DNA from: a virus
Length of the DNA stretch: 19,196 nucleotides
Virus genome (UHGV): UHGV-1692018
Reading direction: 5' to 3' (one strand)
The notes beneath the pieces were generated by a model. The model was given only the letters and a program-made list of their open reading frames with translations, was not told where the DNA came from and did not search any database. A program made the translations under genes and the position numbers. Position 1 is the first letter of the stretch. Each line of letters opens with the position of its first letter. This document shows, one piece after another, positions 1,256 through 19,080 of this stretch.

Positions 1256-3085
1256 TCACTGCTGTGTTGCCTCAGTGGCAAGCAGCGGTCTGATGGCATT
1301 TGCAGCGTTACTTAATGCTCTTTCATAGGCTGGCGTTCCTGCTTTGGTGTTTGCCAAACGTAAGAGAGCATTCCTTGCTGCTTTTGACTCATACAAGCGC
1401 ATCATTGCACCGAAACCAGCCTCAAGCCCCATTGATACGCCAAGAGTCGCAGTTGCGCCAATCGTCCTTATCCTGTTGGCTTGCGATTGTCCTGTCTGTG
1501 TTACTACATTTGCGGCGTCCGACCTTGCTGTTTGCTGTAGAACTTCATGAAGAGCATCAAGCTCTTTCATGTGTCTCCCACTGAATATCGTGTTATAGAT
1601 CTGACCGTCAGATTGCGACTTCAACTTATTTAACTCGGTAAGAAATTTTGTTGGCGAGTCTCCTGCTTTTTCTGCAATCTTGCTGATATAAGCAGCACGC
1701 ATAGCGTTCTTTCCATCTTCACTAAGAGCTGGCCATATCCTCTTAATATCTGATGGTTTTCTGCTGAATACAACACTGTTTATTAGCTCTGGAGTAAACT
1801 CTTTTTTAGCTTTGTTGAGATTATTCGCAATCCTTTTATTAAGAACCTTATTGAAGACGTTAGAGTAGTCAGAGTTTGCCTTGACGTATCTGGCGGCCTC
1901 TCCAGCCCCCAAATACCGCGCTGCGTTATTCCTCAAATCTGCCCCCATTGCCCTCTCCACGGTATCAGTTGCGGCTTTCGCGCTATTAGGAAAAACCATG
2001 GCATCTCCCTGAATACTTTCCCTCAAGGCTGACCGCAACTCTCTCAATAGACCAAAATCTATATCTGGTTTAGCAAGTTCTTCTCGCAAATCGGATAACC
2101 CGCGAATCAAATCCTTATTTGCCACTTTCCCAAGCCTATTAGCTCTGGTAAGTACGTTGTCGATAACCTTAATAGATTTTGATGTGTCAACTGGTGTGTC
2201 TCCCATTTTGGCTGTAATGTCTTCAATAACGCTTCCGGCCGAATCCTTCCTTGACTTCAGAGAACCATACAGATCGTCAACAACAACTGATGGGCTATAT
2301 TCACCATATTTCTCAAGCTGTTTTTTAACTAGCTGACTTCTTTTTGCATACTGCTCAGCTCGCTTTGAGCCTGTCCCGAGCAAAGCCCCCTCGGCATCCT
2401 GAGTTAGGCCGCGAGTGAAAGCATTTTTCGGCGGGATAACATCAGATGTCATTGGTGTCACGCCCATCGATTCTGAGGTGGCAATTTTTTTCGCTACTTC
2501 TGGCGCGATATCGCCTTTTATAGCCGTTATTCCACGCCCTATTCCCTTTGCTGCTGCGGAAAGAACACCCTGAGCAGCAAGGTTAACTCCGGCGTTTATG
2601 GCTGCATTTTGCGCGAAATCGCCTTTCTGGTTTGCGGCTTCTGCCAGTGATCCAATAGCCATGCTTCCTGCAGTTCCAACTCCTGGAACTAAATACCCGC
2701 CAATTGTTTCTCCAGCTTGCGCATAAGGGTCTGTTGGTCGATCTACTGGACGATAGACATCGTCCAAAACCTTGTGACCACCAAGCCCCTGGCTGATTGC
2801 ATTAATCAGACTTGCGCCACCCTGCAATACGTCAAATGGTATGTTTACCAGACCACGACCAGCCTGTTCTGCAATTTGCCCTGCACTTTGACCACCAGTG
2901 AGCCAATCGCCAGCTTGTTGCATCAATGATGGTTCTTCCTGTGTTGGTGCATTATTGGCCTGATTAACTGTTTGTTGCTGAACAGCCTGACCAGCAAAAT
3001 ACTCATCAATGGCGGTGCCAATATCTTCGGTGCTCGTACCATCAGGAAAGGTAAATGTCTTACCGTTTGCAGTTACTTTCATCAT
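1256..3085 (-). CDS. Ejection (internal virion) protein, P22 gp16-like
   Basis: 609 aa, Ala/Gly/Gln-rich, last gene of the virion operon in the position of P22 gene 16, whose size I recall as 609 aa. Start overlaps the upstream gene's stop. Confidence 0.8.
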
Positions 3086-4461
3086 TCCACCGTAAATTGA
3101 ATGCCTGATTTTGACGTGTAGCTACCTCCTGCTGATTGCTGAGTAGCTGGCTGTTGCCTTGATGATTTCTTCCCGCCATTACCGACATTAACGTTATATT
3201 GCTGGTTGTAATTGTCGGTATATTGCTGAATGTCGCGCATTGATTGTTGTAGTGCTTCAGGGCTTGAGAAATCAACCTGTGGCATACCTTGAAAATACAT
3301 CTTTGCTTCTGCAACGGTGTTGATACCAGATGCCCCCATGTCTCTGGCTGCTGCAATGCCCTGATTCTGCATCTTTCCTTGGATTCGCTGTGCAGCGTTG
3401 TATAGTTTCCTCTGATCACCACCAGAGGCACGGCTACGAATATCTGCACCAAGAGCAGGAGAACCTGAAGAGCCTGTAATGCCAGTCATGAAGCCAAGAT
3501 CGTCAATTGATGCGCCAGAAATTGCATCAAGATCTTTCTTCATTGCGTAATTCTGCGCGCTTGCTGCCGACGTGGCCGGAGCAGCAATAGAGCCAGCAGG
3601 AACGCGAACCATGTTCCCCTCATTGTCTATTCCTTCGTAGAACGCGTTAGCACCTGCACCATGAAGCTTCCCGCCTACGGTTACAGTTCTTCCGTCTGCT
3701 AGTTGAACTGTGCGCTCATTATTACCAACAGCCCCTTTCATTGATGCTCTCTGCATCGCTAAATCCTGACCTCTCCGTGCAGTAGCAGCAGATAAATCCT
3801 GACCGCGCATCGTGATATCCTGACCACGAGCAGTTAACTGATTTCTTTCTCCTTCAAGTCGACGCCCCTCCATTCGATCTTTGATATCGAAGTACTTCTC
3901 ATGACCGAGAGAAAATAGTGCCAGATTACCTGTGAAGTGCTGGAAGCCCTGCGGGTCATTAACCTGCATTTCCGCAATAGTTTCTGGAGGGATACCTAAA
4001 CGACGCATCTCCTTTTCGTTATCCATCATGAACCTGCCAAATGCACCCGGACCAAGCGACGAAGCGACCTGAGCCTTAAGCGCCAGATTGCCAAAATCAT
4101 TCCGCTGGGCGTCATCGACATACCCCATGCCTTTACGAACTTCCTCAAACTCTTCGGGGAATGCTGTAATAAGATTACGCATCTGCTCCCTGTCGCCGGA
4201 CGCATAAGCATCCGCATAACCTTTCTGGAATGCCGCTTTACGTTCCTGCTGTTGCTGCTGCTTATAAATATCAGCAACTCCAGCCAGACCACGTAACGCG
4301 GTCAGACCAACGTTATTTGCACCTGATCGAGCCAGTTCATTGTTTTCGCGAATCAGACCAAGCGTTGCATTAATGTCGCTTGCCTTTGGCGCATTCTCGT
4401 TTTGCGCACCAATTCCAGCCAGAAAACCACCAGAATTAATACCCTGTTGCCACGTAGCCAT
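3082..4461 (-). CDS. Ejection protein, P22 gp20-like
   Basis: 459 aa in the gp20 position (P22 gp20 about 471 aa from memory); low-complexity Gly/Ala/Gln-rich composition typical of podovirus ejection proteins. Confidence 0.75.
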
Positions 4462-12884: not shown

Positions 12885-14300
12885 TCAACCTACACCACAA
12901 GGAATTGAGTAACTGGAATAGTCGGGTTGCGCAGCCGACTCCGGGCAATGCATACACATCATCAGCGCATCAGCCAGGTTAGGAGATGGAATACCGAGCT
13001 TCTGCTTCATTTCGACCTTAGTCATAAGCTCCAGCTTCCCGTTGTTATTGAATTTGCGCTGAATCTGCGTCAGTTCTGCAAATAGCTTCTCCAGCATCTT
13101 CTCGCCTATCGCTTCTTTGTCGAAACTCAGCATGTCGTCGGGGTCTGCATACTCACCGTGAACAACCGCCCGATATGTCAGATACAGCCTGTCAGCCAGC
13201 GCGTAATAGAATTGCGCTCGCTTATTGCGGAACACATCGCCAATAGTGCGAACGTTGTCACCCTGTACGACTTCATCAGCCCATGCTCCGGCTTGATACG
13301 GTGCATCTTCATCGAATGGCGATTCGCTGCCCTTGAACATCGTGGCGGTGATTTTCTTGCCGGAGAACGCTTCCGTTGTCTGTCTGCGTAGCCCGGCACC
13401 AACACCATCACCATCCCACAGGTAATGGTCAGCGCCGTCTTCAATCGCCAGCGAAGTAGCCCAGTCAGCACCTTCATTGATGTCCATCAGCAGACCTTCG
13501 GCAATGCGCTTAACTACCGAACCGTGGCGCGATGCATAACCTTTAGCATCCGGTCCTGTATCTGACGGGTCATGCGCAGAGACAACAGCGCCTTTCGCCT
13601 TCCATCCGAGTTTCTTGTGCGCATCGGTTGCGGCTTCAAGCCATTCACGTTTGATAATTGCCATATCACTTGCGCTCACTGGCTCACCAAGCCAGATGTG
13701 ACGATACAGTGTCGGATTTCTGCGTTTACACTCTTCCATCTCCAGACGGAGAACTTCAGGAAAGTGCGGGTTGTCGGTGTAGTTCACCGTCAGCAGGCAA
13801 ATATCATCGGGAGGATTTACAACGAATCGCTGATAGGTATCGTCGAGGATGTTCTTAGGGTTGAAACTCACCCATATTTCGGAAAACGGCTTGCGGATGG
13901 TTGGTATCAGGATATCCCATGATTCCTTCGTTACCGCTTCCGCTTCTTCCACCCAGCAGATATCAATGCCTTCGAGCGATTTAATCTTCGTCGGGTTGTT
14001 TTTGATGCCGTAGAACATGAACTCAGCATTCGTTCCGAGATGACGAATCATGGAACGCTGAATTTCAAACTCAGCCGAATATCCTTCACGCTCGATGGTG
14101 TCTTCAAGCAGCCGGATTACCGAATCGCTGATACTGTTTTGCAGTTCACGAGCGCAGAGAATACGCACTGGCTGACGACGCGCCGCTTCAACAAGCAGCC
14201 TCGCAATTGCCCATGATTTACCGCTACCTCGACCGCCTTTGGCGACTTTGTAGCGATGCGCCTCAATGAACGGTTCAAAGATAGGATTAATCGAGGTCAT
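12885..14300 (-). CDS. Terminase large subunit
   Basis: 471 aa; Walker A P-loop at the N-terminus (VAKGGRGSGKSWAIARLL); 4-nt overlap with the small-subunit gene upstream, portal gene immediately downstream. Confidence 0.9.
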   Translation of the reverse strand: MTSINPIFEPFIEAHRYKVAKGGRGSGKSWAIARLLVEAARRQPVRILCARELQNSISDSVIRLLEDTIEREGYSAEFEIQRSMIRHLGTNAEFMFYGIKNNPTKIKSLEGIDICWVEEAEAVTKESWDILIPTIRKPFSEIWVSFNPKNILDDTYQRFVVNPPDDICLLTVNYTDNPHFPEVLRLEMEECKRRNPTLYRHIWLGEPVSASDMAIIKREWLEAATDAHKKLGWKAKGAVVSAHDPSDTGPDAKGYASRHGSVVKRIAEGLLMDINEGADWATSLAIEDGADHYLWDGDGVGAGLRRQTTEAFSGKKITATMFKGSESPFDEDAPYQAGAWADEVVQGDNVRTIGDVFRNKRAQFYYALADRLYLTYRAVVHGEYADPDDMLSFDKEAIGEKMLEKLFAELTQIQRKFNNNGKLELMTKVEMKQKLGIPSPNLADALMMCMHCPESAAQPDYSSYSIPCGVG

Positions 14301-14737
14301 TTTCCGAACAGAGTGCTCATCGGTGATGTTTCAATCTGGATTGCGCCGCCGTCTTTGCCTGTTAGCTCGTGATCAACCTTGTCGCGCCATTTATCCTTCT
14401 GTCGGTTCTTAAGCCAGAAGATGGCAGCTGTTGTATCAGGCGGGTAATACTTCTCAAGAGGAGTTTCGACAATTCTGTTTTCAATAACACGAATATCGAT
14501 GTCTGGAGCCACGAAGCCCATAGCGCGTTGATAAAGACGATCACTAACTTCTGCATCAGCGACTGCCTTACCCTTTTTTATGGACTCTAAAAACTCCGGA
14601 TATTCCAATTTCCAATTGTTGATTGTTGCCTCGCTAACTTCAAAGAAGTCCGCGAGTTCGGCGTCTGTACAGCCCAGCAAGCACAGTTTGCGTGCCTGTT
14701 CGGCATACGCCTCTTGATACTTTGTTGGGCGCGCCAT
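14297..14737 (-). CDS. Terminase small subunit
   Basis: 146 aa immediately upstream of and overlapping the large terminase; N-terminal HTH-like region (ELADFFEVSEATINNWKLEYPEF) typical of small terminases. Confidence 0.75.
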   Translation of the reverse strand: MARPTKYQEAYAEQARKLCLLGCTDAELADFFEVSEATINNWKLEYPEFLESIKKGKAVADAEVSDRLYQRAMGFVAPDIDIRVIENRIVETPLEKYYPPDTTAAIFWLKNRQKDKWRDKVDHELTGKDGGAIQIETSPMSTLFGK

Positions 14738-14739
14738 GT

Positions 14740-14982
14740 TTATGCTCCGGTAGTGAACAGGTCTAACGCTTCCTTCGATTTACGCACCGCTTCGATAGTG
14801 CGGGTCGTGATATCTGAATTAGCGCCGCCTGACTGGAAGTGAATTTTGAATAGCTCAAGCTTCAGCTCGTCAGTGCCAATGAACTGAAATGCTTCCTCTG
14901 CGGCTGCGTTCTGGTTCATGACCAGCTTGTAAATCTCTAACTGGAATTTCTGTTCTTCAGTCATGGGAATAATCTCTGCCAT
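14740..14982 (-). CDS. Hypothetical 80-aa protein translationally coupled to the terminase genes (P22 orf80-like position)
   Basis: GGAG 6 nt upstream of the ATG at 14982; stop abuts the small terminase start; no recognisable motifs. Confidence 0.55.
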   Translation of the reverse strand: MAEIIPMTEEQKFQLEIYKLVMNQNAAAEEAFQFIGTDELKLELFKIHFQSGGANSDITTRTIEAVRKSKEALDLFTTGA

Positions 14983-15003
14983 TGTTGGCTCCGTTTATCC
15001 GTT

Positions 15004-15029
15004 AAAAGGGATATCAGTTAAGTTATCCC
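15004..15029 (-). terminator. Weak terminator-like hairpin upstream of the 80-aa ORF
   Basis: Minus-strand GGGAUA, 10-nt loop, UAUCCC, followed by UUUU; short AU-containing stem, so weak. Confidence 0.3.
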
Positions 15030-15334
15030 GTGTAGGGTATAAGCCATTGTCGAGACCACTCATTGAATGGTCTCTGCAATAACCGATGTCTTTCCATCAG
15101 TCCGCCACCACAAAGAATCTTTTTTGCCATAAGGCAGGAGGTTCATCTTTCAGTGGCTGCCAGTGTTATTTCCCCACTTACTGGCTTGGGTTGCTTCGTG
15201 GTACTGCCGCAACTGGTGGTGCACAGATTTAGTTAAATCTGTTCTCGCCTGAACTATCTTTTACATACCCGGATTGTGGGGATGTAAATCACGGTTTCAT
15301 TATCAAGCCCACCCGTAGATAGGCTTTGTAATGG

Positions 15335-15592
15335 CTACTTCGCTTTTGCTTCCGCTCGCTTACGCCGGCGCTCTTCTTTCCTCTCGGCTTTTGCCATGTC
15401 CATGAATGCCTGCATGATCGAGTTCCGCATCATGTAGCTAACAAAGTGATGATTGACACAGCCGTTGAGGCGCAGCTGCTCGCCAAACTCATCCACCGAG
15501 GCCAATGCTTCCATCATGCCCTTCTCGCCTTTCATGAACTCTGAGAAGTCGCGCCCCGCTCTGGAGGCGCATTCAATAACACGATCACTCAT
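15335..15592 (-). CDS. Hypothetical 85-aa protein with basic C-terminal tail, coupled to the KilA-N/Bro-N gene
   Basis: ATGA start/stop overlap with the upstream gene; C-terminus ERKEERRRKRAEAKAK is highly basic; no recognisable domain. Confidence 0.5.
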   Translation of the reverse strand: MSDRVIECASRAGRDFSEFMKGEKGMMEALASVDEFGEQLRLNGCVNHHFVSYMMRNSIMQAFMDMAKAERKEERRRKRAEAKAK

Positions 15593-16086
15593 CCCGGAAG
15601 CCCGGGGATCGTAATCTGCAGCTGGTTAGCCAGGGAGTTAATCTCAGCGACCAACACTGGCTTCGTATAGCGCCATGCTGCCAGCCCTTGTCCGCAGAAG
15701 CTCGCCATGTCTTTCTTCTGGTCAAACTCATGACATTTCATGTTGAGCTGCGCACTTAAGCTGTTGCGATGCTGAAGTTCTCCGGTGAAGTAGTCATCCA
15801 GGACTTTATAGGCTGCATATTTAAATCCGGGGTTTAGCCATGCTGCATAATCATAAGCAACAAACTTCCCGCCATATGTTCCACCGTGTACACCGCGCTC
15901 AGTAAAAACCACAGATTCGTGGTTTTTCTCCAGCTCGGCTAAGAACTCTTTGGTCTGCTTGTTTCGCAGGTAGTGGTACGGAGATTCAGATTCACTTTTA
16001 CCACTGGCTTTCCACATATCAGTGAGGCAGATCATTCCTGATTCATCAACACGGATCGGTGTATTAAAAAGCGTGATTGCTTTCAT
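15589..16086 (-). CDS. KilA-N/Bro-N-type (antirepressor-like) DNA-binding domain protein; moron-like insertion between lysis and terminase genes
   Basis: The listed 222-aa ORF starts at 16257 inside an upstream terminator; the likely start is the ATG at 16086 (MKAITLFNTPIRVDESGMICLTDMWKASG...), about 165 aa. The N-terminal pattern F..iR....G.....tD..ka.G fits the KilA-N/Bro-N consensus as recalled. Confidence 0.6.
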   Translation of the reverse strand: MKAITLFNTPIRVDESGMICLTDMWKASGKSESESPYHYLRNKQTKEFLAELEKNHESVVFTERGVHGGTYGGKFVAYDYAAWLNPGFKYAAYKVLDDYFTGELQHRNSLSAQLNMKCHEFDQKKDMASFCGQGLAAWRYTKPVLVAEINSLANQLQITIPGLPG

Positions 16087-16230
16087 AGCGTCTTTACCTT
16101 TTAGAAAGTGAGCCTGTCTCACAGAAAAGCCGCCCGAGAGAGGTCGCCACCTATAACGGCATTTCTCAGGCTCGCTTACTGAAAGGCTCTCGTTAATATG
16201 CGCGTGAGATGCGCTGTGAAATTCAGATAT

Positions 16231-16253
16231 AAAAAAGCCCCGCATCGCGAGGC
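16231..16253 (-). terminator. Intrinsic terminator downstream of Rz
   Basis: Minus-strand GCCUCGC-GAU-GCGGGGC (7-bp stem with one G.U pair) followed by UUUUUU, about 30 nt after the Rz stop. Confidence 0.6.
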
Positions 16254-16285
16254 TCATTAAATGGACTTTGTGATTTGCAAAAAAA

Positions 16286-16723
16286 TTATTTCAGGCATTG
16301 CGTCCTGATGTATTCCTGCAGGTAGTTAACCTGCGCGGTTATCTTGTCGATTCCACTTCGGAGACGGTAATAATTGAGTTCAGCATCTGCTGTAAGTCCT
16401 GGGCTTTCTCCATCGCCCATGCCGCTGGCTCCGGTCGTTGACTTTGCACAGGTGGCGGCGACTTGCAGGCGCTTACGCCCAGCAGAAACATCAGCACGGA
16501 GACTTTCGATAGTCGCGTTAGCATCAGCAAGCTCCTTTGTGTATCTGGCGTCGAGTTCTGCTACATCACGTTGACGCTTCTGCATATCAGCGATGATGGA
16601 TGTGGCTTTATCGCGCTGCTCTTTGTAGGTCATGGCGTTATCACGGTAATGATTAACAGCCCATGACAGGCAGACGATGATGCAGATAACCAGAGCGGAG
16701 ATAATCGCGGTTACCCTGCTCAT
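16286..16723 (-). CDS. Rz: Rz-type i-spanin (inner-membrane spanin)
   Basis: The ATG at 16723 overlaps the endolysin stop (ATGA). N-terminal transmembrane segment ([18 protein letters not shown]) followed by a charged, probably coiled-coil periplasmic region. An Rz1-like ORF is embedded in the +1 frame. Confidence 0.8.
16339..16530 (-). CDS. Rz1: Rz1-type o-spanin (outer-membrane lipoprotein) embedded within Rz
   Basis: Lies wholly inside Rz in another frame. Signal peptide with lipobox VSAC (FLLGVSAC) followed by a Pro-rich mature region ([16 protein letters not shown]), the classic Rz1 signature. Confidence 0.8.
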
Positions 16724-17223
16724 TGCTGCCCCCACAAACAGACTTCACGCTCAATATCACGACGGGTCATCAGTCCTTTCCATTGCTTACCGCCAGCGTA
16801 TGTCCAGCGACGTAGTTGATCACATGCACCTTTGATATCGCCCTGGTTGATTTTGCGAAGAAGCGTCGATGTTCTGAAATTGCCAGCGCCCACGTTGTAA
16901 ACGAACGAGTAAAGAGCGCCGCGCGTTGTTTCCGGTATATCGACTTTGATGTACGGGTTAATTTGTCTGGCGACCGTGGCAAGGTCTTTATTCAGGAGGG
17001 CTTTGCATTCTGCTTCGGTATACGTTTTACCGAGCATGATGTCTTTTCCTGTATGCCCGTAACATACAGTCCATACACCAACAATATCTTTGTATGGTAT
17101 GTAGCTGACACCTTCCAGGCCATCGTTACCACTTGGTCCAGTGATTAACACAGATGCTATAGCAATAGCCCCGCCACTTATCGCCGCTATTACGCTATTT
17201 CGTAGTGCCGGTGACATTGCCAT
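16720..17223 (-). CDS. SAR endolysin (signal-anchor-release lysozyme, T4-lysozyme/GH24-like)
   Basis: N-terminal Gly/Ala-rich weakly hydrophobic segment ([20 protein letters not shown]) followed by a catalytic region with the E-8 residues-D-5 residues-T pattern ([17 protein letters not shown]), as in P1 Lyz and phage 21 R. Confidence 0.85.
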
Positions 17224-17398
17224 TCAATCTGTCCTCGCGCTCTTTGCGCTTGTAGTACCAGTTGATGCCAAATGTGCCGACAGTACAAAGAATACCAATG
17301 ATGACAGCCCAGTCATTCAGGGAGAGAATGCCACCCATCGCAGTCAGTCCTCCGAAGCTGTAACTGAACCATTCTCTGATTTTGTCCATACGGTACAT
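17195..17398 (-). CDS. Pinholin-type (class II, S21-like) holin with dual-start motif
   Basis: 67 aa; starts MYRMDKI, compared with phage 21 S MKSMDKI as recalled. Gly-rich first hydrophobic segment ([13 protein letters not shown]), second transmembrane segment ([18 protein letters not shown]), basic C-terminus. Paired with a SAR endolysin. Confidence 0.7.
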
Positions 17399-17854: not shown

Positions 17855-18367
17855 TTAAACGGTATGATATTTCATTCTGGCTGCCTCAAAAGCCGCAGCG
17901 GCAAGTTCGGCAGTGTCATGGTATCCAAGGTTAATACACTTTCCAGACGCATTAATTCTTGCTCTCCATTTCCCGTACTTAGCATCCCAAGACACGCCAC
18001 GGTATCCAGATTTATTATTCTTCTGAATTTTCCTGTTTTGCATATTTTCGGAATGAGTGACAAGACGAAGATTTGATATCCGGTTATCTGTTCTTACCCT
18101 GTTGATGTGATCAATAAAACCATCGGGCATGGTGCCATAAACAATCAACCATGCCAGTCTGTGAGCAGGGCATGCTTTACCATTAATCATAATCATTAAA
18201 TACCCATCAGAATTTATTGATGAGCATTTCTTGAAAGCAAAACGAGAGTTCCATGTCAAAGTGGTCCTCTCTCTCCCCTGCCTCCATCTCCAGTGAAAGT
18301 CGCCTGATGATGGATTGTAATCAACAACAGAAAGCACCATTTCTGGCGTTAATTTTATTTCTTTCAT
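17855..18367 (-). CDS. Free-standing HNH homing endonuclease with C-terminal AP2-type DNA-binding domain
   Basis: 170 aa. HNH motif region AHRLAWLIVYGTMPDGFIDHINRVRTDNRISNLRLVTHSEN; C-terminal AP2-like region GYRGVSWDAKYGKWRARI...GYHDTAELAAAAFEAARMKY. Confidence 0.85.
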   Translation of the reverse strand: MKEIKLTPEMVLSVVDYNPSSGDFHWRWRQGRERTTLTWNSRFAFKKCSSINSDGYLMIMINGKACPAHRLAWLIVYGTMPDGFIDHINRVRTDNRISNLRLVTHSENMQNRKIQKNNKSGYRGVSWDAKYGKWRARINASGKCINLGYHDTAELAAAAFEAARMKYHTV

Positions 18368-18489
18368 CGCTTTACCTTAGGGATAGAGCCTGTTCGCGTA
18401 GATATGACAGCCAAGAGCGGAGCGATGTTTCCACCACCATATCTCAGGCCCATATCACTAAGACTCTTGTTTTGATTGCACGCGAATGC

Positions 18490-18512
18490 AAAAAAGCCCA
18501 CAGGAGGTGGGC
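18490..18512 (-). terminator. Intrinsic terminator about 50 bp downstream of the Q-like gene (tR'-like)
   Basis: Minus-strand GCCCAC-CUCCU-GUGGGC (perfect 6-bp GC stem, 5-nt loop) followed by UUUUUU. Confidence 0.7.
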
Positions 18513-18554
18513 TTGTGATGGTTGCTGAATGCAAAAGCAGCAGCATATGTGAAT

Positions 18555-18584
18555 ATTATGGCTAAATGGCTAATTGCATGTCAA
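18555..18584 (-). promoter_or_regulatory. Candidate late promoter (pR'-like) overlapping the 3' end of the Q-like gene
   Basis: Minus strand has TTGACA (18579-18584), an 18-nt spacer containing the Q stop codon, then CATAAT (18555-18560). Predicted start is about 18548, giving a roughly 55-nt RNA ending at the 18490-18512 terminator. A -10-like element (TATGCT) lies in the initial transcribed region. Confidence 0.45.
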
Positions 18585-19080
18585 GACTTTTAACAGCAAC
18601 ATGCTTAACTTTCTCAACACGTTTACGCATTTTGAAAGCATTTTGCATTGGTTGGTACAAAACAAATAACGACGCTTTCAGGATGTCGTCAATTTCGTTT
18701 CTACAGGTTGCCATTGAAGGTTTTCTCCATCCCTCGCCACCACGTCCACACATCTTGCGTGGCTTTGCAGTCGCGTGATAGTAGGATGCAATTGCTCGCT
18801 TAGATGAACCATGAGCGTAGTAGCTGAGGAGGATGCCAAAGGCTTTTTTGTCAATGTACATGACGGAATCGACGACCTGAGAAATCAACATTCCATCATC
18901 ATCATTGCACATTGGCCTTGTCATAACTCTTCCCGGCTCTACGCTCTCCATGAACTTCGCTATTACGCTGCTCATGCGCTTTTCCAGACGACCTGAATAA
19001 ACCCATGCGCCCCACAGTTCAAGCCAGCCATTCAGCCACTCATGCTGTTCTTTGGTGAGGTTTAGTTCTCTTATGCCCAC
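18562..19080 (-). CDS. Q-like late-gene antitermination protein (QuuD/phage-82-type family, tentative)
   Basis: 172 aa, GTG start with GGAG upstream. Motifs WLELWGAW and RPMCNDDDGMLI resemble E. coli prophage Q-type antiterminators (QuuD: ERWGAW ... RPQICDDDAMII, recalled from memory). Located immediately upstream of the late promoter/terminator and the lysis cassette. Confidence 0.6.
   Translation of the reverse strand: MGIRELNLTKEQHEWLNGWLELWGAWVYSGRLEKRMSSVIAKFMESVEPGRVMTRPMCNDDDGMLISQVVDSVMYIDKKAFGILLSYYAHGSSKRAIASYYHATAKPRKMCGRGGEGWRKPSMATCRNEIDDILKASLFVLYQPMQNAFKMRKRVEKVKHVAVKSLDMQLAI

What the first reader, a model, noticed from the sequence alone, without database searches (positions are those of the whole stretch)
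15335..16253. Moron-like two-gene module (KilA-N/Bro-N protein plus basic-tailed 85-aa partner) between the lysis and packaging genes
This block interrupts the otherwise canonical Rz-to-terminase transition. It is preceded by an intrinsic terminator (16231-16253) and a possible, weak promoter (TTCACA, 16 bp, TATTAA at 16193-16220, lacking the conserved -7 T), has a roughly 100-nt leader with a 5-bp inverted repeat just before the RBS, and its two genes are translationally coupled (ATGA). KilA-N/Bro-N domains occur in antirepressors and in conflict-system effectors; the partner has a Lys/Arg-rich tail suggestive of nucleic-acid binding. P22 carries rha in the equivalent slot (from memory), so this slot appears to be a cargo site.
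Basis: partly seen in the sequence, partly recalled or inferred. Interest (0 to 1): 0.55.

Follow-up and report, generated by a model that had tools for sequence, protein, structure and literature searches.

The report
Late-operon KilA-N cassette with RNA switch leader
The two genes are a common, already annotated phage accessory pair (HK620 hkbK/hkbL) with no sign of its own promoter, and they sit behind a terminator and a conserved, apparently undescribed folded RNA leader that can hide or expose the ribosome-binding site.

Summary
On the minus strand, between Rz and the packaging genes, lie a 165-aa KilA-N + ORF11CD3 protein (15589-16086) and an ATGA-coupled 85-aa basic-tailed partner (15335-15592). 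A terminator precedes them. No Bro-N domain is present. The pair equals HK620 hkbK/hkbL (97% nt) and matches 1232 of 5426 complete E. coli genomes.

The "moron with its own promoter" reading is not supported. The proposed hexamers fail a consensus scan and are not conserved, composition is unremarkable, and no downstream terminator exists.

The stretch from terminator to ATG is instead a conserved structured leader RNA. It was found in front of six Bro-network or HNH gene types (KilA-N+ORF11CD3, KilA-N+P63C, pRha+ORF11CD3, P22_AR_N+ORF11CD3, HNH_3+AP2, HNH_3 alone). It includes P22 rha and a second copy in this window (18365-18478, after pR'/tR'). Covariation supports two incompatible folds. 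One is a long hairpin pairing an anti-SD with the Shine-Dalgarno sequence. The other is a 5' domain closed by helix P1 (about 20 sequence variants).

Best reading: a swappable late-operon cargo allele that needs Q-antiterminated read-through for transcription and is gated at translation by the leader. The proteins' function remains inferred (Rha-like or antirepressor-like DNA-binding regulator). No Rfam family matches the leader.

The parts
16226..16255 (-). Intrinsic terminator after Rz (stem-loop 16255-16235 plus U run)
   Evidence: Found by the terminator scan, with 9 pairs of which 6 are G-C. A terminator-like hairpin precedes the leader in 107 of 122 distinct upstream contexts, with many different stem sequences. 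The HK620 homology block starts at 16254, so the terminator travels with the cassette.
16200..16214 (-). H1 hairpin (GCGC-AUCUCAC-GCGC), between the terminator and the leader core
Evidence: It is almost invariant across leader types. The PhiR49_1 type has a compensated GCGU/ACGC stem, and copy 2 has UGCA/UGCA.
16193..16220 (-). This is not supported as a promoter.
   Evidence: The site fails the sigma-70 scan because it lacks T at position 6 of the -10 hexamer. Homologous positions in other leader types read TTCACC, GTAAAC or are deleted at -35, and CAACAA, TATCAA or TGTTTT at -10.
16084..16201 (-). Structured 5' leader RNA, copy 1 (covariance-model match, through the ATG)
   Evidence: The model R1 match scores 116.9 bits, E 7e-29, against 16.9 bits for the antisense strand. 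Fifteen representative leaders fold with z-scores of -1.9 to -5.3. No Rfam family matches. The leader is non-coding.
16096..16187 (-). Long imperfect hairpin (OFF fold). Its base pairs the anti-SD GCCUUU (16187-16182) with the SD region AAAGGU (16101-16096).
   Evidence: It is the minimum-free-energy and centroid structure, -38.9 kcal/mol. The same architecture appears in 13 of 15 diverged representatives. On alignment A8, 79.1% of cells are paired against 35-50% with slid partners, and 27 of 33 pairs show double-sided changes. G-U pairs number 228 against 64 A-C. The SD GG has an unpaired probability of 0.003 here and a median of 0.005 over 50 leaders.
16187..16192 (-). P1 5' strand (CGAGAG)
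   Evidence: It pairs with 16135-16140. P1 is present as 5-8 contiguous base pairs in 50 of 50 distinct leaders, with about 20 different sequences. Cross-pairing controls average 4.6 bp.
16135..16140 (-). P1 3' strand (CUCUCG), inside the apical region of the long hairpin
   Evidence: P1 shares G16187 with the long hairpin and would have to cross its lower half. P1 and the SD-sequestering lower stem therefore cannot form together (an inference from topology).
16097..16100 (-). Shine-Dalgarno core (AAGG) of the KilA-N gene
   Evidence: Read from the sequence. It is paired in the OFF fold.
15589..16086 (-). KilA-N + ORF11CD3 protein gene (165 aa), equal to HK620 hkbK
   Evidence: Pfam matches are, and PHROG phrog_129/phrog_10441. 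Nucleotide identity to HK620 is 97%. The AlphaFold2 model has pLDDT 86, with an N-terminal alpha/beta domain and a long helical hairpin at residues 86-156.
15335..15592 (-). 85-aa partner (p85), equal to HK620 hkbL. It is ATGA-coupled and has a basic C-terminal helix.
   Evidence: It matches phrog_875 and no Pfam family. The family is small: 21 representatives at E<=1e-3 among 1.84 billion proteins. C8 and C45 are invariant, and H48 and H49 nearly so. The model has pLDDT 93 with three helices, and no PDB match was found.
15298..15333 (-). Strong hairpin directly after the p85 stop codon, without a U run. It marks the 3' edge of the mobile block.
   Evidence: It is folded. The block 15334-15298 is shared by about 120 held loci, and mosaic boundaries fall at 15298 and 15285. 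The terminator scan did not call it.
18365..18478 (-). Second copy of the leader RNA, upstream of the HNH_3+AP2 gene (17855-18367)
   Evidence: The R1 match scores 48.2 bits, E about 1e-10 to 2e-9. P1 is CAAGAG(U)/(G)CUCUUG. Pfam assigns HNH_3 and AP2 to the gene.
18494..18514 (-). Terminator upstream of leader copy 2 (probable tR')
   Evidence: Found by the terminator scan with 8 pairs. It lies about 40 nt downstream of the promoter at 18584-18555.
18555..18584 (-). Strong sigma-70 promoter TTGACA-18-CATAAT overlapping the end of Q (probable late promoter pR')
   Evidence: It matches 11 of 12 consensus positions. Its position relative to Q (18562-19080; Pfam Phage_antitermQ) matches the pR' annotations in HK620, P22 and Sf6.

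Best explanation
The block is one allele of a swappable set of Bro-network accessory genes that occupy the slot between Rz and the packaging genes in lambdoid phages. Here it is a KilA-N DNA-binding protein with an ORF11CD3 helical-hairpin tail, plus a translationally coupled 85-aa three-helix partner (HK620 hkbK/hkbL).

It is not an autonomous moron. It sits behind an intrinsic terminator, so it is transcribed when Q-modified late RNA polymerase reads through. This step is inferred from lambda Q biology.

Its translation is gated by a conserved leader of about 115 nt. The thermodynamically favoured fold of that leader is a long hairpin of about 30 bp that pairs an anti-SD with the Shine-Dalgarno sequence (OFF). 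An alternative 5' domain, closed by helix P1, cannot coexist with the lower half of that hairpin and would leave the SD free (ON). Both structures are shown by covariation. That they switch translation is inferred.

The most likely logic is tight limitation of a product that is harmful in excess. The ON fold would form first during transcription and give a short translation window. Alternatively, the hairpin would be opened or cut by a host factor such as RNase III.

The proteins most likely act as a late-expressed, Rha-like or antirepressor-like DNA-binding regulator in phage-phage, phage-satellite or phage-host conflicts. That biochemical role is inferred only from domain content and from the shared slot, leader and C-terminal domain with P22 Rha.
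For: Identity and spread:
- Pfam KilA-N and ORF11CD3 matches.
- 97% nucleotide identity to HK620 hkbK/hkbL.
- The same pair follows Rz in Stx phages, PhiR49_1 and Salmonella phages, and lies among tail genes in Klebsiella phage RAH1.
- 1232 of 5426 complete E. coli genomes have a match.

Slot alleles and mosaic joints:
- P22 rha replaces window 16198-15210 between conserved flanks.
- HK97, HK022 and mEp235 replace only the first gene, with KilA-N+P63C (25% identity), while keeping the 85-aa gene at 88-98% nucleotide identity.

No own promoter.

Leader:
- It is homologous across gene types.
- z-scores are -1.9 to -5.3, and 13 of 15 representatives share the SD-pairing hairpin.
- On the structure-blind MAFFT alignment A7, the OFF fold has 75.2% of cells paired against 36-58% with slid partners. 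22 of 33 pairs show double-sided changes, and 0 of 500 shuffles reach the observed covariation score.
- On A7, the ON fold has 78.6% paired against 41-62%, 10 of 16 pairs with double-sided changes, and 0 of 500 shuffles.
- On the model-fitted alignment A8, 79.1% are paired against 35-50%, with 27 of 33 pairs showing double-sided changes.
- P1 is present in 50 of 50 leaders with about 20 variants.
- G-U pairs number 228 against 64 A-C, and the sense strand scores 116.9 bits against 16.9 for the antisense strand.
- The SD GG has a median unpaired probability of 0.005, against 0.089 for other genes of the window.
- The MFE is -41 to -55 kcal/mol, against -23 to -35 for the ON-constrained fold.
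- The leader is non-coding.

The leader is independent of the product:
- It precedes KilA-N+ORF11CD3, KilA-N+P63C, pRha+ORF11CD3, P22_AR_N+ORF11CD3, HNH_3+AP2 and HNH_3 alone.
- Leader types and gene types are shuffled relative to each other.

Terminator link:
- 107 of 122 contexts have an upstream terminator-like hairpin.
- Copy 2 lies directly after a strong promoter and terminator at the end of Q.

Precedent for toxicity and RNA control of Bro-network genes:
- P4 Eta/Kil and the CI-seqA RNAs (PMC10111431).
- Rha is described as inhibitory for phage growth in IHF mutants. This rests on the title of Henthorn and Friedman 1995 as cited in PMC8951638. The paper itself could not be read.
Against: - No transcript or translation data were available. 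A non-consensus or activator-dependent promoter between the terminator and H1 cannot be excluded.
- The two folds are supported by covariation, but switching between them is not demonstrated. P1 could instead form a pseudoknot with the upper stem only.
- In 2 of 15 representatives (HK97 and L105) the MFE is a different register that leaves the SD unpaired.
- For copy 2 in the window, the SD unpaired probability is 0.43.
- A first, cruder SD-accessibility measure did not separate leaders from controls.
- A few leaders lack an obvious upstream terminator (L088, L106, L240).
- Alignment A8 was fitted to the OFF structure, which inflates its counts.
- The proteins' function has no direct evidence. 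There are no significant structural neighbours and no solved homologue.
Confidence: 0.6

Rival explanations
1. Autonomous moron. The module has its own sigma-70 promoter (TTCACA-16-TATTAA), is expressed from the prophage, and gives the lysogen a phenotype such as exclusion or altered induction.
For: - It is an insertion-like block in a variable slot.
- The upstream terminator would insulate it from read-through.
- The hexamer strings exist.
- In P22 and BTP1 the same slot carries pid, which is expressed in lysogens (PMC7067206).
Against: - The hexamers fail the scan, and the count of promoter-like sites in the region is at chance level.
- They are not conserved in homologous leaders, while flanking RNA helices covary.
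- The supposed spacer is the H1 hairpin.
- GC content equals that of the flanks.
- There is no downstream terminator.
- An identical arrangement sits directly behind pR'/tR'.
Confidence: 0.12
2. The 5' domain of the leader (P1-P2-P3) is cut out as a stable small RNA. That RNA acts in cis and in trans on the SD region of leaders of the same specificity type. This would be an immunity-like antisense system analogous to P1 c4/icd-ant, P4 CI/seqA or Gifsy-1 IsrK.
For: - A closing helix P1 with two internal hairpins resembles a processed small RNA.
- The 5' half is complementary to the SD-containing 3' half, and the two halves co-vary as distinct types.
- The two copies in this window are of different types.
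- RNA repressors are known next to Bro-network genes (PMC10111431).
Against: - There is no match to Rfam C4, isrK or any other family, even at E<=10.
- There is no evidence of processing, or of transcription in lysogens.
- Intramolecular pairing alone explains the covariation.
Confidence: 0.15
3. The long hairpin is mainly an RNase III (or other) processing and stability site that separates the lysis mRNA from the downstream message, as in T7 intergenic sites or the lambda N leader. It would not be a two-state switch, and P1 would matter only for folding or for protecting the 5' end.
For: - It is an imperfect duplex of about 30 bp with a conserved asymmetric 6-nt internal bulge.
- It lies at a junction between gene modules, just after a terminator hairpin.
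- A second strong hairpin closes the cassette at 15298-15333.
- The comparison with RNase III sites rests on my own knowledge, not on a test.
Against: - P1 covaries as strongly as the hairpin. Covariation on that scale would not be expected if P1 had no regulatory role.
- The SD is always placed in the base of the stem, and the anti-SD/SD pair itself covaries (CCUUU/AAAGG, CUUA/UAAGG, CCUA/UGGG, ACCUGC/GUAGGU).
- This rival also overlaps with the best explanation, because cleavage could be the ON trigger.
Confidence: 0.2
4. The pair is a toxin-antitoxin-like or abortive-infection/defence module. KilA-N would be the toxic effector and the 85-aa protein its neutraliser.
For: - The genes are tightly coupled as a pair.
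- 'Kil' toxicity of Bro-network proteins is known (PMC10111431).
- There is a weak PADLOC match of the KilA-N part to the candidate PDC-S22 (E 6.8e-9).
Against: - The order is large gene first, with the partner made only by coupling, and with no promoter or autoregulatory operator.
- The location is the late operon behind a terminator, not a prophage-expressed position.
- Rha-type alleles of the slot lack the partner (0 of 76).
- The 85-aa protein has no PADLOC match.
Confidence: 0.05

Closest known systems
Coliphage HK620 genes hkbK and hkbL (and the same pair annotated in Stx phages 1717 and 2851, PhiR49_1 and ECP1)
   Same: They are the same two genes in the same place, at 97% nucleotide identity over window 15200-16254. 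The terminator and leader are included.
   Different: Nothing essential differs. The flanking Rz and terminase alleles are different. The public annotation says only 'KilA-N domain-containing protein' and 'hypothetical protein', and no leader RNA is annotated.
P22 (and phi80) rha
   Same: - It occupies the same slot between Rz (gene 15) and orf80/gene 3.
- It has the same upstream terminator and a homologous type B leader.
- It has the same C-terminal ORF11CD3 domain.
- It is reported to be harmful to phage growth when IHF is missing. This is known only from the title cited in PMC8951638.
   Different: - The N-terminal domain is Phage_pRha, not KilA-N.
- There is no 85-aa partner (0 of 76).
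- The annotated P22 start (a GTG 69 nt upstream) lies inside the leader. The ATG at L007:2145 is the likely start.
Bro-N/KilA-N 'Bro network' of domain-swapping phage DNA-binding proteins (P1 KilA, P22 Ant, P4 Eta/Kil, HK022 Roi)
   Same: - The protein has a KilA-N N-terminal module joined to an exchangeable C-terminal module.
- The alleles seen here swap KilA-N, pRha and P22_AR_N at the N terminus and ORF11CD3 and P63C at the C terminus (PMC10111431).
   Different: - No Bro-N or ANT domain is present.
- The protein is much shorter than P1 KilA or P22 Ant.
- Antirepressor activity is not shown.
RNA control of Bro-network genes: P1 c4/icd-ant, P4 CI/seqA, Gifsy-1 IsrK, P22 sar/ant
   Same: An RNA element placed just upstream of a Bro-network gene is complementary to its translation-initiation region. 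It comes in sequence-specific types (PMC10111431).
   Different: - No Rfam C4 or isrK match was found.
- The complementarity here is intramolecular, within one leader.
- The location is the late operon, not an immunity region.
- No processing or trans action is known.
mRNA leaders with alternative structures that gate translation (lambda cIII structures A/B, MS2 maturation-gene kinetic folding, hok mRNA)
   Same: Two mutually exclusive folds exist, and one of them occludes the SD. The stable fold is OFF, and the 5'-local fold forms first. The comparison itself is from my own knowledge.
   Different: The sequence and architecture are unrelated. Here the element is a portable cassette shared by several unrelated genes, and it is always placed behind an intrinsic terminator.
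Morons (Juhala/Hendrix definition; for example the P22-like 'ant moron' described in PMC2629481)
   Same: It is an extra, non-essential-looking gene block that interrupts an otherwise syntenic late operon. Its content varies between relatives.
   Different: - No own promoter was found.
- The terminator lies upstream rather than downstream.
- Base composition does not deviate from the flanks.

Membership tests
KilA-N domain proteins (PF04383) | Significant match to the KilA-N profile above Pfam's gathering score | tested here: met
   The match scores 58.5 bits against a cut-off of 23.8, E 6.6e-16, over residues 7-101. The model shows an N-terminal alpha/beta domain.
Bro-N domain proteins (PF02498) | Match to the Bro-N profile | tested here: not met
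   No Bro-N hit appears even with max E-value 10.
ORF11CD3 C-terminal domain (PF10549), shared with Rha | Match above the gathering score at the C terminus | tested here: met
   The match scores 50.5 bits against a cut-off of 25 over residues 109-161. BLASTP to the P22 Rha C terminus gives 35% identity, E 2e-8.
Moron | The block is absent or replaced between the same neighbours in related phages | tested here: met
   P22 has rha, Sf6 has genes 65 and 66, CUS-3 has a 203-aa ORF, and HK97 has a different first gene. Sharp homology breaks define the block.
Moron | Own promoter | tested here: not met
   No site passes the scan on the minus strand between 16235 and 16087. The proposed hexamers are not conserved. 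Only consensus and conservation were tested. Transcript mapping was not possible.
Moron | Own downstream terminator | tested here: not met
   There is no terminator-like site on the minus strand between 15334 and 14983. The hairpin at 15298-15333 lacks a U run.
Moron | Base composition different from the flanks | tested here: not met
   GC is 45-55% in the module against 44-53% in the flanks.
Moron / lysogenic conversion gene | Expression from the repressed prophage | not testable with these tools
   This needs RNA-seq or reporters in lysogens.
C4 / IsrK / P4 CI antisense RNA families (Rfam RF01695, RF01394) | Match to the covariance model | tested here: not met
   No hit to these or any related family in the window or in four other leader types, at E<=10 or E<=1.
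Antirepressor (functional class) | Binds and inactivates a phage repressor | not testable with these tools
   Only annotation by analogy is available. One record (RAH1) names the homologue 'antirepressor', and PHROG names it 'transcriptional regulator'.
Known anti-phage defence systems (PADLOC) | Match of the component proteins to a system model | tested here: inconclusive
   The KilA-N part matches the candidate PDC-S22 weakly (33 bits). The 85-aa protein has no match.
SD-sequestering bistable mRNA leader (functional class) | Two conserved, mutually exclusive helices, one of which pairs the SD | tested here: met
   Covariation supports both folds. The SD is paired in the stable fold. Exclusivity follows from the shared base G16187 and from topology.
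SD-sequestering bistable mRNA leader (functional class) | Effect on translation shown | not testable with these tools
   This needs reporter fusions, toeprinting and structure probing.

The most novel reading that the evidence does not exclude
The terminator-H1-leader unit is a previously undescribed, portable phage riboregulator. It would be a bistable RNA switch that lambdoid phages attach to toxic Bro-network and HNH accessory genes. Those genes would then be made only from antiterminated late transcripts, and only in a controlled burst. The ON/OFF choice would be set by a cellular cue such as RNase III, an IHF-dependent factor or elongation speed. That could explain the old observation that Rha blocks phage growth in IHF mutants. 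The sequence-specific leader types might additionally work in trans as an immunity-like code between co-resident phages.
Probability: 0.3. Interest if true: 0.7.

Novelty: new member of a known kind. Interest (0 to 1): 0.45.

Why it matters

What is new is the regulatory context. A conserved structured leader lies behind an intrinsic terminator, is shared by at least six kinds of accessory genes, and occurs in phages whose cassette matches about a quarter of complete E. coli genomes. It matches no Rfam family, and I found nothing on it in the literature library I could search.

If the switch is real, three things follow:
- It gives a concrete, testable mechanism for how lambdoid phages keep harmful Bro-network genes (rha, kilA-like genes, homing-endonuclease-like genes) silent in lysogens and limited during lytic growth.
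- It corrects some gene starts, for example P22 rha.
- It offers a handle on the long-unexplained rha/IHF phenotype.

It also shows that blocks that look like morons can be late-operon alleles rather than prophage-expressed cargo.

Tried and rejected
- Bro-N domain: searched down to E<=10 and absent.
- Sigma-70 promoter: rejected on the consensus scan and on conservation.
- Compositional island: none.
- Rfam: no match at gathering threshold for the whole window. Only chance-level hits at E<=10 around the module, and none at E<=1 in four other leader types. The rimP-leader and GlsR20 hits are chance matches to the terminator and to a small hairpin.
- Fold search of the 85-aa model and the KilA-N model against the PDB: nothing below E 0.1.
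- PDB sequence profile search: nothing.
- PADLOC: only a weak match to a candidate system.
- Profile search of 1.84 billion proteins with the 85-aa family: the family is tiny and gave no functional clue. The exception is rare fusions to T5orf172.
- GTDB genome scan with the KilA-N alignment: only 8 loci, of little use.
- Henthorn and Friedman 1995 and Iyer et al. 2002 could not be read. Literature searches for hkbK, PhiR49 or a described rha leader found nothing relevant.
- A first SD-accessibility measure over a 5-nt window did not separate leaders from controls. It was replaced by the GG-core measure.
- Alignment A6 contained two rows with wrong coordinates and was discarded.
- An N-terminal extension of the protein through the leader (the 222-aa ORF) was rejected.
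- A DNA-level inverted repeat as the explanation of the hairpin was rejected on G-U asymmetry and on the strand-specific model score.
- Autoregulation of the leader by its own product was rejected, because the leader precedes unrelated proteins.
Full report
WHAT THE WINDOW IS. The window is part of a P22-like (Lederbergvirus-type) E. coli phage or prophage. Its closest relatives are phiv205-1, CUS-3 and HK620. The late operon runs on the minus strand in this order:
- Q, 18562-19080.
- An HNH_3+AP2 gene, 17855-18367.
- Holin, 17195-17398.
- Lysozyme, 16720-17223.
- Rz, 16286-16735.
- The finding, 15335-16253.
- A 352-nt non-coding stretch.
- A DUF2560 gene, 14740-14982.
- Small terminase, 14297-14737.
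- Large terminase, 12885-14300.

CHECK OF THE OBSERVATION. The 165-aa ORF (ATG 16086, stop 15589) matches Pfam KilA-N (E 6.6e-16) and ORF11CD3 (E 2.4e-13), both well above the curated cut-offs. Bro-N is absent even at E<=10.

The 85-aa ORF (15335-15592) starts inside the first gene's stop codon (ATGA) and ends in a Lys/Arg-rich helix. The terminator is real, with a 9-bp stem at 16255-16235 followed by a T run.

The proposed promoter strings exist but fail a standard sigma-70 scan. The region holds no more promoter-like sites than shuffled sequence does. The long 222-aa version of the ORF is an artefact. In 42 of 50 distinct homologous leaders the frame is closed upstream of the ATG, and leader lengths differ by non-multiples of three. 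P22 does carry rha in the same slot.

THE GENES ARE KNOWN AND COMMON.
- The block is 97% identical in DNA to HK620 hkbK/hkbL.
- It recurs after Rz in Stx-converting phages, in PhiR49_1 (a cos phage with Nu1/A terminase) and in Salmonella phages.
- In Klebsiella phage RAH1 the same pair, with the same upstream region, sits among the tail genes.
- 1232 of 5426 complete E. coli genomes contain a match, and 383 of them cover at least 80% of the block.

Mosaic joints define the unit:
- HK620 homology begins at 16254, so it includes the terminator.
- Stx-phage homology ends at 15298, and Salmonella-phage homology ends at 15285.
- In P22 the segment 16198-15210 is replaced by rha between conserved flanks.
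- In HK97, HK022 and mEp235 only the first gene is replaced, by a KilA-N+P63C protein with 25% identity. The 85-aa gene is kept at 88-98% nucleotide identity.
- Sf6 carries two unrelated small genes in the slot, and CUS-3 carries a 203-aa ORF.

It mostly holds alternative alleles of one protein class, the Bro network of domain-swapping DNA-binding proteins (PMC10111431).

THE 85-AA PARTNER.
- It belongs to phrog_875 and has no Pfam family.
- The family is very small. A profile search of 1.84 billion representatives found 21 proteins at E<=1e-3.
- The alignment shows invariant E7-C8-A9-S10-R11, G13-R14-D15-F16-S17 and G44-C45, with H48 and H49 nearly invariant. I read this as a possible metal site. 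That is inference only.
- AlphaFold2 gives a confident three-helix model (pLDDT 93) with no meaningful PDB neighbour.
- In the loci held, it follows KilA-N+ORF11CD3 genes in 154 of 168 cases, with the ATGA overlap in 152. It follows KilA-N+P63C genes in 3 of 3 cases and P22-type Rha genes in 0 of 76. The sampling is biased, because many loci were fetched through the partner itself.
- A more distant homologue (P0177) follows a 234-aa pRha protein with the same 4-nt overlap, inside an Arc/Mnt-Ant (immI-like) cluster.
- Two remote relatives are fused to a T5orf172/MUG113 domain.

The partner is therefore itself a module of the Bro network. It is made by coupling to the upstream gene.

THE KILA-N PROTEIN. 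The model (pLDDT 86) has an N-terminal alpha/beta domain at residues 1-84. A long helical hairpin at residues 86-156 corresponds to ORF11CD3. No significant structural or sequence match to a solved structure was found. The C-terminal domain is shared with P22 Rha (35% identity; Pfam).

WHY IT IS NOT AN AUTONOMOUS MORON.
- The hexamers fail the scan. At homologous positions in other leader types, the -35 reads TTCACC, GTAAAC or is deleted, and the -10 reads CAACAA, TATCAA or TGTTTT.
- The 16-nt 'spacer' is a conserved hairpin (H1).
- GC content does not differ from the flanks.
- No terminator follows the genes.

THE LEADER RNA (MAIN NEW RESULT). Aligning the Rz-to-ATG regions of seven phages showed that the stretch of about 150 nt is homologous whatever gene follows. 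From 255 fetched loci I obtained 69 distinct H1-to-ATG elements, which reduce to 19 representatives below about 90% identity.

The common architecture, from 5' to 3', is:
- An intrinsic terminator, with many different stems.
- A U run.
- About 15 nt.
- Hairpin H1.
- About 8 nt.
- The P1 5' strand.
- The anti-SD.
- A long imperfect hairpin with a conserved 6-nt bulge in its 3' strand.
- The SD.
- The ATG.

Fold 1 (OFF). The long hairpin is the minimum-free-energy structure in 13 of 15 representatives. Their z-scores range from -1.9 to -5.3. Its base pairs the anti-SD with the SD, and this pair itself covaries: CCUUU/AAAGG, CUUA/UAAGG, CCUA/UGGG and ACCUGC/GUAGGU.

Fold 2 (ON). A 5' domain is closed by helix P1. 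The 3' strand of P1 lies in the apical region of the long hairpin, just before a conserved GG. P1 is present as 5-8 contiguous pairs in all 50 distinct leaders, with about 20 different sequences. Examples are CGAGAG/CUCUCG, CCCGAG/CUCGGG, CACCGA/UCGGUG, CCAAGAGC/GCUCUUGG, CACAGAA/UUCUGUG, CUCAGAA/UUCUGAG, CGCAGAA/UUCUGCG, GCAUAGAG/CUCUAUGC and CAUCGA/UCGAUG. Cross-pairing between leaders gives a mean of 4.6 pairs.

Covariation counts:

| Alignment and fold | Cells paired | With slid partners | Pairs with double-sided change | Shuffles reaching the covariation score |
|---|---|---|---|---|
| A7 (structure-blind MAFFT), OFF | 75.2% | 36-58% | 22 of 33 | 0 of 500 |
| A7, ON | 78.6% | 41-62% | 10 of 16 | 0 of 500 |
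| A8 (fitted to the OFF structure, so it favours it), OFF | 79.1% | 35-50% | 27 of 33 | 0 of 500 |

The structure belongs to the sense-strand RNA. There are 228 G-U pairs against 64 A-C pairs in the stems. The model scores 116.9 bits on the sense strand against 16.9 bits on the antisense strand.

P1 shares G16187 with the hairpin, and its strands would have to cross the lower stem. P1 and SD sequestration therefore exclude each other. A pseudoknot of P1 with only the upper stem is sterically conceivable. Both points are my inference.

The OFF fold is the more stable by 7-27 kcal/mol. The SD GG has a median unpaired probability of 0.005 in 50 leaders, against 0.089 for other genes of this window.

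No Rfam family matches any leader type. I found no description of the element in the searchable literature.

THE LEADER IS A PORTABLE MODULE. It precedes KilA-N+ORF11CD3, KilA-N+P63C, pRha+ORF11CD3, P22_AR_N+ORF11CD3, HNH_3+AP2 and HNH_3-only genes. Leader types and gene types are combined freely:
- Type A occurs with KilA-N or with Rha.
- Type B occurs with Rha in P22 and with KilA-N in PhiR49_1.
- Type C occurs with all three.
This argues against autoregulation by the product.

A SECOND COPY IN THE WINDOW. A second copy lies at 18365-18478 (48.2 bits, E about 1e-9), immediately upstream of the HNH_3+AP2 gene. It is preceded by a terminator at 18514-18494. About 40 nt further upstream is an 11/12 consensus promoter at 18584-18555 that overlaps the end of Q. 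These are very probably pR' and tR'.

A terminator-like hairpin precedes the leader in 107 of 122 distinct contexts. Some of the remainder are false positives of my detector.

MECHANISM PROPOSED.
- Shown: the anatomy, the two conserved folds, the position of the SD in the stable fold, the constant terminator, and the absence of a conserved promoter.
- Inferred from lambda Q biology: only terminator-resistant late transcription complexes reach the genes, so they are silent in lysogens.
- Inferred: the leader limits translation. This would happen either kinetically, with the 5' domain forming first and the OFF hairpin then taking over, or through a factor that opens or cuts the hairpin. RNase III is an obvious candidate for such a duplex.
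- Such tight control fits a product that is harmful in excess. Bro-network proteins such as P4 Kil/Eta are toxic (PMC10111431). P22 and phi80 Rha were named for inhibiting phage growth in IHF mutants. That reference is cited in PMC8951638, and I could not read the paper.
- What the KilA-N protein and its partner do remains unknown. I favour a late-acting DNA-binding regulator of the antirepressor or Rha kind, at low confidence.

COMPARISON AND NOVELTY. The gene pair is already known as annotation and is a member of the KilA-N and ORF11CD3 families. It is not a Bro-N protein. It fails three of four testable moron criteria. The leader works like other SD-sequestering bistable leaders, and like the RNA controls that accompany other Bro-network genes, but it matches none of their families. 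I therefore rate the whole as a new member of a known kind. The genes are ordinary, and the regulatory RNA is the part worth following up.

LIMITS.
- No expression data were available.
- The covariance-model E-values are rough.
- The loci were sampled through the proteins themselves.
- The alignments contain related sequences, so the shuffle counts are not probabilities.
- Switching between the folds is not demonstrated.

Noticed in passing
window 17855-18584 (minus strand): Between Q and the holin lies an HNH_3+AP2 (homing-endonuclease-like) gene. It is preceded by a strong promoter overlapping the end of Q (TTGACA-18-CATAAT), then a terminator about 40 nt downstream (probable pR'/tR'), and then a second copy of the same leader RNA. 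CUS-3 has no gene at this position.
   Followed up: partly
window 14983-15334 (minus strand): The 352-nt non-coding stretch between the 85-aa gene and the DUF2560 gene folds far better than shuffles on the sense strand (z -7.85, against -3.9 on the other strand). It consists of sub-blocks (15334-15298, about 15219-15085, about 15080-14994) that occur in different combinations in other phages. It is 91-99% identical to sequences in P22, HK97 and HK022. A weak, sub-threshold Rfam hit to Proteo-phage-1 lies at 15155-15219. Its function is unknown.
   Followed up: partly
L007 (P22, NC_002371) 2076-2147: The annotated GTG start of P22 rha lies inside the conserved non-coding leader. The homologous leader ends at the ATG at L007:2145, which is the more likely start and gives a 178-aa protein.
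   Followed up: partly
P0187 and P0190 (remote relatives of the 85-aa protein): In two proteins of 164 and 179 aa, a domain like the N-terminal part of the 85-aa protein is fused to a T5orf172/MUG113 (GIY-YIG-like) domain, which is another module of the Bro network.
   Followed up: partly
L257 154-2738 (Logan contig SRR26623998_60898): A distant homologue of the 85-aa protein follows a 234-aa pRha protein with a 4-nt overlap. It lies in a cluster of Arc-like repressors and a P22_AR_N antirepressor, which is an immI-like region.
   Followed up: no
L037 1554-3043 and L119 120-2451: Some phage contigs carry two leader-gene cassettes close together. L037 has P22_AR_N+ORF11CD3 and then KilA-N. L119 has an HNH_3 gene and then KilA-N. 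The two leaders are of different sequence types.
   Followed up: no
L005 (Klebsiella phage vB_Kpn_RAH1) 1888-2755: The whole unit (terminator, leader, KilA-N+ORF11CD3 and the 85-aa gene) lies between the major tail subunit gene and the tape-measure region instead of after Rz. The unit therefore moves as a block.
   Followed up: partly
L089 (contig JARKOR010000234.1, labelled Candidatus Nanosynbacter MAG): A 4-kb contig binned as a Saccharibacteria MAG carries a 94% identical KilA-N gene with a type B leader. This is most likely a mis-binned enterobacterial phage fragment.
   Followed up: no
window 15597-15610 (minus strand): A GC-rich hairpin, CCCGG-GCUU-CCGGG, ends directly before the ATGA junction. 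There is no usable SD for the 85-aa gene, which is consistent with strict termination-reinitiation coupling. The hairpin is not conserved in diverged homologues.
   Followed up: partly
L007 (P22) about 2870-3500 against window 15024-14996: P22 has about 630 extra bases here (the orf25 region) that this window lacks. From memory, this is where the pid locus of P22 lies. PMC7067206 reports pid as highly expressed in BTP1 lysogens, so the same slot can also carry prophage-expressed cargo.
   Followed up: no
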